Source of the DNA: Escherichia coli
GTDB taxonomy: Bacteria > Pseudomonadota > Gammaproteobacteria > Enterobacterales > Enterobacteriaceae
DNA: 64,000 nt
NCBI RefSeq assembly: GCF_003019035.1
Contig: NZ_CP027447.1
Direction: 5' to 3' (one strand)
This document shows, piece after piece, positions 10,453-10,499 of this stretch (position 1 is its first letter; every line of letters begins with the position of its first letter). The notes under the pieces were generated by a model. The model had not been told where the DNA came from. It saw nothing but the letters and a program-made list of their open reading frames with translations, and did no database searches. Made by a program: the position numbers and the translations under genes.

Positions 10453-10479
10453 AAAAAAAGGGCCGCCGGTCGGCAGCCC
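10453..10479 (-). terminator. glmS rho-independent terminator (contains the attTn7 insertion point)
   Basis: GC-rich stem gggccgccg/cggcagccc with a flanking A-run on the + strand (T-run on the glmS strand), about 20-45 nt downstream of the glmS stop. Confidence 0.8.
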
Positions 10480-10499
10480 TTTTCTATCAACGAGAGATA

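What the first reader, a model, noticed from the sequence alone, without database searches (positions are those of the whole stretch)
10453..10499. attTn7 region is unoccupied but directly abuts the fimbrial island
The glmS terminator hairpin and the first about 25 bp downstream of the glmS stop, the established Tn7 insertion point, are intact, with no Tn7 ends or tns genes. The fimbrial island begins immediately beyond, so this strain has foreign DNA at the attTn7-proximal locus without a transposon.
Basis: partly seen in the sequence, partly recalled or inferred. Interest (0 to 1): 0.3.

Follow-up and report, generated by a model that had tools for sequence, protein, structure and literature searches.

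The report
Empty Tn7 site inside lpfO113 island
This E. coli has an unoccupied but usable Tn7 landing site just after glmS, and the hairpin that holds it belongs to the well-known LpfO113/Stg fimbrial gene block that replaced the ancestral glmS terminator; this is ordinary and already known in outline.

Summary
The window is E. coli pstSCAB-phoU, lpfDCBA (LpfO113/Stg type), glmS, glmU, atp. The core observation holds. A strong hairpin lies after the glmS stop, it is uninterrupted, and the 64 kb contain no Tn7 ends or tns genes. A near-identical genome (FDAARGOS_1285) carries a 15.4-kb Tn7 here with a 5-bp duplication AGCCC (window 10475-10479), centred 23 bp from the stop. The window is therefore the empty form of a working attTn7. 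Tn7 occupies this point in 29 island-bearing and 55 K-12-type complete genomes, about 1.5-1.8% of each.

K-12 homology ends 2 bp after the stop (10498) and resumes at the pstS Pho boxes (5070). The hairpin and the insertion point are island DNA, not K-12's terminator.

E. albertii, a divergent Escherichia and two Citrobacter have the short spacer with the K-12-type terminator. Homologous four-gene operons with related hairpins sit directly after glmS in E. ruysiae, Pseudocitrobacter, Salmonella and Enterobacter. Three alleles cover nearly all 5,424 genomes: short ~3,064, lpfO113 ~1,920-2,005, lpf2 355.

The module is not Tn7 cargo. It most likely spreads by recombination in the conserved flanks (inferred). 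Already known; low interest.

The parts
10500..12329 (-). glmS (609 aa); stop codon TAA at 10502-10500
   Evidence: TIGR01135 glmS, 897.7 bits against a cutoff of 418.
10500..10535 (-). TnsD-binding part of attTn7, the last 36 bp of the glmS ORF (+23 to +58)
   Evidence: 35 of 36 bases identical to K-12. The one difference is the wobble base at +35 (window 10512, GTT to GTA). It is not among the seven critical positions listed in PMC2918618. The same allele hosts Tn7 in L004.
10475..10479 (.). Empty Tn7 insertion point, the 5 bp (AGCCC) that Tn7 insertion duplicates; centre 10477 is 23 bp from the last base of the stop
   Evidence: the two Tn7 junctions in FDAARGOS_1285 map to window 10479 and 10475; the same junction is found in 29 complete genomes.
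10453..10486 (-). Intrinsic-terminator-type hairpin of the lpf module. In the glmS sense: A-tract, 8-bp GC stem GGGCUGCC/GGCGGCCC, loop GACC, then U7
   Evidence: centroid -22.4 kcal/mol, z -4.9; related hairpins follow glmS in O157 lpf2, E. ruysiae, Salmonella, Pseudocitrobacter and Enterobacter. The termination function is inferred.
10497..10499 (.). glmS-side junction. The TA at 10498-10499 is still shared with K-12; island-type sequence starts at 10497 and runs downward
   Evidence: K-12-type genomes match only from query position 349, which is window 10498; direct sequence comparison.
10193..10452 (-). AT-rich lpfA upstream region (presumed promoter and regulatory region)
   Evidence: GC 0.33 in 400-nt windows; several promoter-like sites, not above chance. 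Function inferred.
9620..10192 (-). lpfA-O113, fimbrial major subunit (190 aa)
   Evidence: NF011817, 390.6 bits against a cutoff of 203. PF00419. RefSeq name.
8841..9572 (-). lpfB-O113, periplasmic chaperone (243 aa)
   Evidence: NF011818, 534 bits against a cutoff of 317. PapD_N and PapD_C.
6294..8816 (-). lpfC-O113, outer-membrane usher (840 aa)
   Evidence: Usher 623 bits, PapC_N and PapC_C. RefSeq name.
5213..6283 (-). lpfD-type fimbrial tip/adhesin-like subunit (356 aa)
   Evidence: best hit is StgD, 231 bits, below the cutoff of 493. PF00419 in the C-terminal half.
5071..5212 (-). Module-specific spacer after lpfD, with a hairpin at about 5179-5205; shared with Pseudocitrobacter, unrelated to the K-12 spacer
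   Evidence: alignment A2.
4966..5070 (-). Conserved pstS promoter with Pho boxes (TGTCATAAAACTGTCATA...), where homology with K-12 and all other alleles resumes
   Evidence: run of invariant columns starting at window 5070..
3925..4965 (-). pstS
   Evidence: NF008171, 746.6 bits against a cutoff of 339.

Best explanation
Window 10453-10499 is the glmS-proximal end of the LpfO113/Stg fimbrial module, which spans window 5071-10497 (5,427 bp).

Shown: (1) After 2 shared bases, the module contributes a 17-nt spacer and its own GC-rich hairpin with a U-tract. (2) This replaces the ancestral glmS terminator found in K-12, E. albertii, a divergent Escherichia and two Citrobacter. (3) The TnsD recognition sequence lies entirely within the last 36 bp of glmS and is intact. 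(4) The spot 23 bp downstream (10475-10479), now inside the module's hairpin, is an empty attTn7 that Tn7 uses in sister genomes at about the same frequency as in K-12-type genomes.

Inferred: (1) The hairpin terminates glmS transcription and insulates lpfA. (2) The module was not delivered by Tn7. (3) It is one of three alternative alleles of the glmS-pstS spacer (short ancestral type, lpfO113/stg, lpf2). (4) These are gained, lost and swapped within and between enterobacterial genera by homologous recombination in the highly conserved flanks, the glmS 3' end and the pstS promoter/gene.
For: Junctions. K-12 identity ends at 10498 and resumes at 5070. K-12 has about 206 bp of its own in between.

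Empty, functional attTn7. A 15,380-bp Tn7 (tnsABCDE plus intI2-dfrA1-sat2-aadA1) sits in FDAARGOS_1285, whose flanks are 99.8% identical to the window, with duplication AGCCC at 10475-10479 and Tn7R next to glmS. One search finds 29 genomes with the island|Tn7L junction. One search finds 55 with the K-12|Tn7L junction. (PMC2918618): only the 36-bp glmS end is required and the sequence at the insertion point is irrelevant.

No Tn7 traces.

Hairpin.

Short state ancestral. Fifteen enterobacterial outgroups have pstS downstream of glmS with no fimbrial genes. Four of them (E. albertii, Escherichia L118, two Citrobacter) share the K-12-type terminator.

Module in the same slot in other genera, with a related hairpin.

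Allele counts.

Lower GC of the module.

Published location.
Against: 1. The recombination mechanism is inferred. Divergence in glmS and pstS between the window and K-12 is patchy, with no clear gradient toward the module, so no import tract was demonstrated.
2. LpfA identity does not follow host relatedness (87% in Pseudocitrobacter against 75% in E. ruysiae). This fits horizontal exchange but also diversifying selection on an antigen.
3. Terminator activity and Tn7 competence of this particular strain were not measured.
4. The simple terminator scan did not list the hairpin. The likely reason is that the stem extends into the A/U tracts, which leaves a short T-run after it.
Confidence: 0.8

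Rival explanations
1. The fimbrial operon is the remnant cargo of a Tn7 or Tn7-like element that once inserted at attTn7 and then lost its ends and tns genes. This is the genomic-island-at-attTn7 model.
For: The location next to glmS is where Tn7-like elements build islands (general knowledge; papers listed). The module has lower GC than its flanks.
Against: 1. The module border is 2 bp after the stop, not about 23 bp, which is where every real Tn7 junction lies.
2. There is no 5-bp duplication and there are no terminal repeats.
3. There is no TnsB-site or terminal motif and no Tns similarity.
4. Four fimbrial genes fill the segment, leaving only 247-nt and 307-nt spacers.
5. The other border sits in the pstS promoter, and about 206 bp of ancestral spacer is missing rather than displaced.
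6. The homologous modules examined in four other genera show the same four-gene content between glmS and the next gene, with no extra genes called.
Confidence: 0.02
2. The lpf/stg module is the ancestral state of the glmS-pstS interval in Enterobacteriaceae, and the short K-12-type spacer arose by loss of the module.
For: Homologous operons occupy the identical slot in Escherichia, Pseudocitrobacter, Salmonella and Enterobacter, with 56-87% LpfA identity and related hairpins. This suggests long residence.
Against: 1. The short spacer has about 206 bp, including a different terminator, with no counterpart in the module. It cannot be produced from the module by deletion.
2. That spacer and terminator are conserved in E. 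albertii, another Escherichia lineage and two Citrobacter. A short glmS-pstS spacer without fimbrial genes is seen in 15 enterobacterial outgroups.
3. The module has lower GC.
4. Both states may be old polymorphisms, and this data set cannot date them.
Confidence: 0.12
3. The module was inserted by another site-specific element, such as an integrase-driven island or an IS composite, that targets the glmS 3' end.
For: The sharp border is right at the stop codon.
Against: 1. No integrase, transposase, att-like direct repeats or IS ends lie in or beside the module.
2. The sharp border is equally expected where selection on the glmS coding sequence ends.
Confidence: 0.03

Closest known systems
attTn7 of E. 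coli K-12 (TnsD-dependent Tn7 attachment site downstream of glmS)
   Same: The 36-bp TnsD site at the end of glmS is the same at 35 of 36 positions. Insertion is centred 23 bp after the stop, with a 5-bp duplication, Tn7R next to glmS, and the insertion within the terminator hairpin (PMC2918618, PMC3273789).
   Different: The DNA at and around the insertion point is unrelated to K-12's. The duplication is AGCCC rather than CCCGC. It falls in the glmS-proximal arm of a different hairpin that starts about 20 nt after the stop, against about 8 nt in K-12. Because of this placement, the duplication regenerates the complete stem plus U-tract on the Tn7L/lpfA side.
lpfO113 / E. coli stg fimbrial operon (and S. 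enterica stg-type operons) in the glmS-pstS interval
   Same: It is the same four-gene chaperone-usher operon in the same location. RefSeq names the genes lpfA/B/C-O113. It matches FDAARGOS_497 at 100% over window 10150-10700. The location is described in PMC2608844 and PMC6033998.
   Different: Nothing material. This window carries the IAI39/CE10/ST648-type variant of the glmS-lpfA spacer (100% matches). Other E. coli variants are 90-96% identical over window 10150-10700.
lpf2 operon of E. coli O157:H7 (O-island 154)
   Same: It occupies the same slot between glmS and pstS, has a homologous operon, and has a nearly identical terminator stem (GGGCTGCC...GGCGGCCC) after glmS.
   Different: The proteins are only distantly related (34-63% identity per PMC2608844). 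It has five genes with a disrupted lpfB, a 699-nt spacer rather than 307 nt, and a different loop and spacer sequence.
Tn7-built genomic islands at attTn7
   Same: Accessory DNA lies immediately downstream of glmS.
   Different: None of the defining transposon features is present, and the border is in the wrong place.

Membership tests
attTn7 (TnsD-dependent Tn7 attachment site) | Conserved 36-bp TnsD-binding sequence at the 3' end of the glmS ORF, with the seven critical positions intact | tested here: met
   35 of 36 identical to K-12. The single change is at wobble position +35. The critical positions +31, 33, 42, 43, 45, 51 and 54 (PMC2918618) are unchanged.
attTn7 (TnsD-dependent Tn7 attachment site) | Tn7 actually inserts about 23 bp downstream of the stop, in one orientation, with a 5-bp duplication | tested here: met
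   L004 has duplication AGCCC at window 10475-10479 with Tn7R toward glmS; 29 genomes have the same junction on this allele.
attTn7 (TnsD-dependent Tn7 attachment site) | Site unoccupied in this window | tested here: met
   the sequence is contiguous across 10475-10479, with no Tn7 ends or tns genes in 64 kb.
attTn7 (TnsD-dependent Tn7 attachment site) | Transposition competence in this very strain | not testable with these tools
   Needs a mini-Tn7 assay.
Tn7 / Tn7-like transposon or its relic | tnsA/B/C (plus D/E) genes or pseudogenes | tested here: not met
   the best tblastn E is 0.099 and no hit lies in 4966-10499; the segment holds only four fimbrial genes.
Tn7 / Tn7-like transposon or its relic | Terminal inverted repeats with multiple TnsB-binding 22-mers | tested here: not met
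   only chance 9-13-mers, and no terminal inverted repeats at the module borders.
Tn7 / Tn7-like transposon or its relic | Border about 20-25 bp downstream of glmS with a 5-bp target duplication | tested here: not met
   the border is 2 bp after the stop, there is no duplication, and about 206 bp of ancestral spacer is replaced.
LpfO113/Stg chaperone-usher fimbrial operon | Major subunit, PapD-like chaperone, usher and tip subunit in one operon | tested here: met
   NF011817 and NF011818 are above their cutoffs; the Pfam domains Fimbrial, PapD_N/C, Usher and PapC_N/C are present. RefSeq names. The usher and LpfD equivalog models stay below their cutoffs (755 against 995; 231 against 493).
LpfO113/Stg chaperone-usher fimbrial operon | Located between glmS and pstS | tested here: met
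   Literature.
LpfO113/Stg chaperone-usher fimbrial operon | Fimbriae assembled and adhesive | not testable with these tools
   All four ORFs are intact. Expression is unknown.
Rho-independent (intrinsic) terminator | GC-rich stem-loop directly followed by a U-tract, downstream of a gene on the same strand | tested here: met
   an 8-bp GC stem extended by A/U pairs, followed by U7, with z = -4.9. The consensus scan did not list it.
Rho-independent (intrinsic) terminator | Transcripts end at the U-tract | not testable with these tools
   Needs 3' end mapping.

The most novel reading that the evidence does not exclude
The lpf/stg module, including its own glmS-proximal terminator, is a trans-genus slot cassette kept at glmS-pstS by flank-mediated recombination. 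Its hairpin is positioned so that the 5-bp Tn7 duplication regenerates a complete terminator on the Tn7L side. That would keep lpfA insulated from transcription leaving Tn7, which would be an adaptation of the module to life at a transposon hotspot.
Probability: 0.05. Interest if true: 0.35.

Novelty: already known. Interest (0 to 1): 0.12.

Why it matters
It matters little beyond bookkeeping. It confirms that strains carrying the lpfO113/stg operon are still targetable by Tn7 and mini-Tn7 tools at the canonical distance from glmS. It also corrects the mental map of the locus: the terminator and insertion point belong to the fimbrial module, not to the K-12 backbone.

There are two practical consequences. 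PCR primers designed on the K-12 glmS-pstS spacer to verify mini-Tn7 insertion will not anneal in the roughly 40% of E. coli that carry an lpf-type allele. A Tn7 insertion here lands about 280 bp upstream of lpfA.

The conserved placement of homologous operons in five genera is a tidy example of a core-gene-flanked accessory slot. It is not a new principle.

Tried and rejected
1. I first mislabelled the two Tn7 ends from memory. The 166-nt query is Tn7L and the 120-nt piece is Tn7R. This was corrected from the spacing of TnsB sites and from the gene order. The chimeric query therefore gave no >=80% hits, but it still revealed the junctions. It was redone correctly.
2. The single genome-contig scan used a glmS-end pattern that is conserved across many phyla. 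Only about 20 were Enterobacterales, but these sufficed as outgroups.
3. I looked for a divergence gradient in glmS and pstS toward the module as a signature of an imported tract. The pattern was patchy and inconclusive.
4. The primary Stg and LpfO113 papers were not in the held library. PMC1595498 was not held, and the searches found nothing useful. The claim that S. Typhi stg lies at glmS therefore rests on my own locus look-up in a Salmonella assembly, not on a citation.
5. An Rfam scan of the spacer gave only sub-threshold sRNA hits driven by the terminator hairpin. These were rejected.
6. The consensus terminator scan missed the hairpin. I relied on the folding result instead.
7. The fold_alignment covariation counts are partly alignment artefacts for the two most divergent hairpins. 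They are not used as strong evidence.

Full report
WHAT IS IN THE WINDOW

All of the following lie on the minus strand:
- pstS: 3925-4965
- a four-gene chaperone-usher operon: lpfD-type 5213-6283, usher 6294-8816, chaperone 8841-9572, major subunit 9620-10192
- glmS: 10500-12329
- glmU: 12491-13861
- the atp operon

Window 10150-10700 is 100% identical to E. coli FDAARGOS_497, where RefSeq names the genes lpfA/B/C-O113.

CHECKING THE OBSERVATION

Read in the glmS sense, the interval 10453-10499 is TA-TCTCTCGTTGATAG-AAAA-GGGCUGCC-GACC-GGCGGCCC-UUUUUUU. It folds into a strong hairpin. The centroid energy is -22.4 kcal/mol, z = -4.9, and none of 200 shuffles folds as well.

No Tn7 feature is present anywhere in the 64 kb:
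- The terminal 12-mer at <=2 mismatches gives 2 distant hits against 5.1 expected.
- The 22-bp TnsB site at <=3 mismatches gives none.
- TnsA-E and IntI2 proteins taken from a real Tn7 give a best tblastn E of 0.099.
- Both 200-bp ends give only chance 9-13-mers, and the full 15-kb Tn7 gives no blastn hit.

THE SITE IS A REAL, EMPTY attTn7

Searching Tn7 ends in 5,426 complete E. coli genomes found 118 carriers. I had swapped the end labels, and that query is Tn7L.

In FDAARGOS_1285 the flanks are 99.8% identical to the window. A 15,380-bp Tn7 lies between glmS and lpfA-O113, with Tn7R next to glmS. It carries tnsABCDE, a class 2 integron (intI2-dfrA1-sat2-aadA1) and an IS3-family insertion.

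Its junctions map to window 10479 and 10475, giving a 5-bp duplication AGCCC. The centre, 10477, is exactly 23 bp from the last base of the stop.

Exact junction queries show Tn7 at this point in 29 lpfO113-type genomes and at the equivalent K-12 point (duplication CCCGC) in 55 K-12-type genomes. That is about 1.5% and 1.8% of the respective allele carriers. A few O157-type genomes also have it (H142-H144).

This matches Mitra et al. (PMC2918618). Only the last 36 bp of glmS (+23 to +58) are needed, and the sequence at the insertion point is irrelevant. The window differs from K-12 in those 36 bp only at wobble position +35, which is not one of the seven critical positions.

K-12-type genomes match the query only from window 10498. 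Direct comparison gives:
- K-12: GAGTAA-TA-AATGGATGCCCTGCGTAAGCGGGGCATTTTTC
- window: GAGTAA-TA-TCTCTCGTTGATAGAAAAGGGCTGCCGACCGGCGGCCCTTTTTTT

Identity ends 2 bp after the stop. The hairpin is therefore not K-12's terminator, and the Tn7 insertion point lies inside island-type DNA.

On the other side, homology to K-12 and to every other allele resumes at window 5070, at the Pho boxes about 105 nt upstream of the pstS ATG. The variable segment is 5071-10497 (5,427 bp). K-12 has about 206 bp of unrelated sequence in its place. This is a replacement, not a simple insertion.

WHICH STATE IS ANCESTRAL

The one genome-collection scan used too universal a pattern, but it returned enough Enterobacterales.

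E. albertii, a divergent Escherichia (L118), Citrobacter FP75 and Citrobacter R56 all have glmS, then a K-12-type terminator (ATGCCCTGC...GCGGGGCAT), then a short spacer, then pstS. Citrobacter FP75 also shares K-12's spacer sequence.

In total, 15 enterobacterial outgroups have pstS downstream of glmS with no fimbrial genes in between. In most of them pstS starts within about 900 nt of the glmS stop.

The short spacer is therefore most likely the older state in Escherichia and Citrobacter. The module also has lower GC, 0.33-0.51 against about 0.50-0.57 within the flanking genes.

THE MODULE IS AN OLD RESIDENT OF THIS SLOT IN SEVERAL GENERA

LpfA homologues are found in Pseudocitrobacter (84-87% identity), E. 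ruysiae (75%), Salmonella enterica (66-69%), Enterobacter (56-68%), Kluyvera and S. bongori.

In the four loci I fetched, the homologous four-gene operon starts directly after glmS. In Pseudocitrobacter, E. ruysiae and Enterobacter it ends directly before pstS.

Each has a hairpin about 17-25 nt after the stop. Those of the window, O157 lpf2, E. ruysiae and Salmonella clearly share one design: an A-run, then GG(G)CTG(C/T)C, a tetraloop, G(G/A)C(G/A)GCC(C), then a T-run. The hairpin belongs to the module.

ALLELE FREQUENCIES IN E. COLI
- K-12-type spacer: 3,064 genomes
- lpf2 (O157-type): 355 genomes
- lpfO113-type: 1,919 genomes at >=80% coverage, up to about 2,005 by subtraction

Together these cover at least 98% of 5,424 genomes.

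MECHANISM

Shown: an intact TnsD site, an empty insertion point inside a module-borne hairpin, and no transposon relics.

Inferred:
- The hairpin acts as the glmS terminator and insulates lpfA.
- The module moves by homologous recombination in the conserved flanks. This would explain why its apparent borders fall exactly where strong purifying selection ends, at the glmS stop and at the Pho boxes.

A test for an import tract in the flanks was inconclusive.

One small point can be read directly. In this allele the duplication covers the first five bases of the stem. After Tn7 insertion, the full stem plus U-tract is regenerated on the Tn7L/lpfA side, while the glmS side loses its terminator. 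The latter is already known for K-12 (PMC3273789).

COMPARISON WITH KNOWN SYSTEMS AND VERDICT

This is the canonical attTn7 next to the published lpfO113/stg locus between glmS and pstS (PMC2608844, PMC6033998). It is not a Tn7-built island, because every defining feature tested was absent. No Rfam family reaches its threshold in the spacer.

The finding is real but ordinary. The only refinement is that the boundary lies at the stop codon, so the terminator and insertion point are part of the fimbrial module.

Noticed in passing
window 58046-63440: A segment of about 5.4 kb between ilvC and ppiC is absent from FDAARGOS_497. It is present at >=80% coverage in only 31 of 5,426 complete E. coli genomes, with 100% identity in SCU-301 and GF131. 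Its genes are annotated as MFS transporter, C-terminal binding protein (2-hydroxyacid dehydrogenase type), sugar kinase, RraA-family protein and GntR regulator. It looks like a rare accessory sugar-acid utilisation cluster.
   Followed up: partly
L004 17241-17300 and 32681-32705 (FDAARGOS_1285); window 10453-10486: When Tn7 inserts into this allele, the 5-bp duplication regenerates the complete 8-bp stem plus U-tract on the Tn7L/lpfA side, while the glmS side keeps only the first 5 nt of the stem. In K-12 the duplication falls in the other arm of a different hairpin.
   Followed up: partly
L127 13038-16576 (Salmonella enterica assembly GCA_030099205.1): The stg-type operon follows glmS as in E. 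coli. Its distal neighbour, however, is an SgrR-like regulator, a shikimate-dehydrogenase-like gene and a PTS component rather than pstS. The distal border of the slot therefore differs in Salmonella.
   Followed up: no
L125 1771-3918 and L127 3184-3882: Pseudocitrobacter has an extra pectate-lyase-like gene, and both Pseudocitrobacter and Salmonella have a Bax1-I family gene, between atpC and glmU. These are absent from the window. This is another variable spot in the same neighbourhood.
   Followed up: no
window 24291-24668: The mnmG-mioC gap is oriC, with 14 GATC sites and DnaA-box matches. The window therefore spans the replication origin.
   Followed up: no
window 10193-10452: The glmS-lpfA spacer beyond the hairpin is extremely AT-rich (GC about 0.33 in 400-nt windows). 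It varies by 4-10% among E. coli lpfO113 carriers, far more than the core flanks. This suggests several old variants of the regulatory region.
   Followed up: no
Genome-contig loci L005-L124: The wobble-degenerate 33-nt pattern from the glmS end (the TnsD site) matched more than 120 species. These span Proteobacteria, Bacteroidota, Firmicutes, Actinobacteria and Cyanobacteria. This illustrates how universal the Tn7 recognition sequence is.
   Followed up: no
L129 33103-34622 (FDAARGOS_497): yifB is annotated as frameshifted in the reference genome. My attempt to check it in the window was invalid because an indel shifts the coordinates, so its state in the window is unknown.
   Followed up: no
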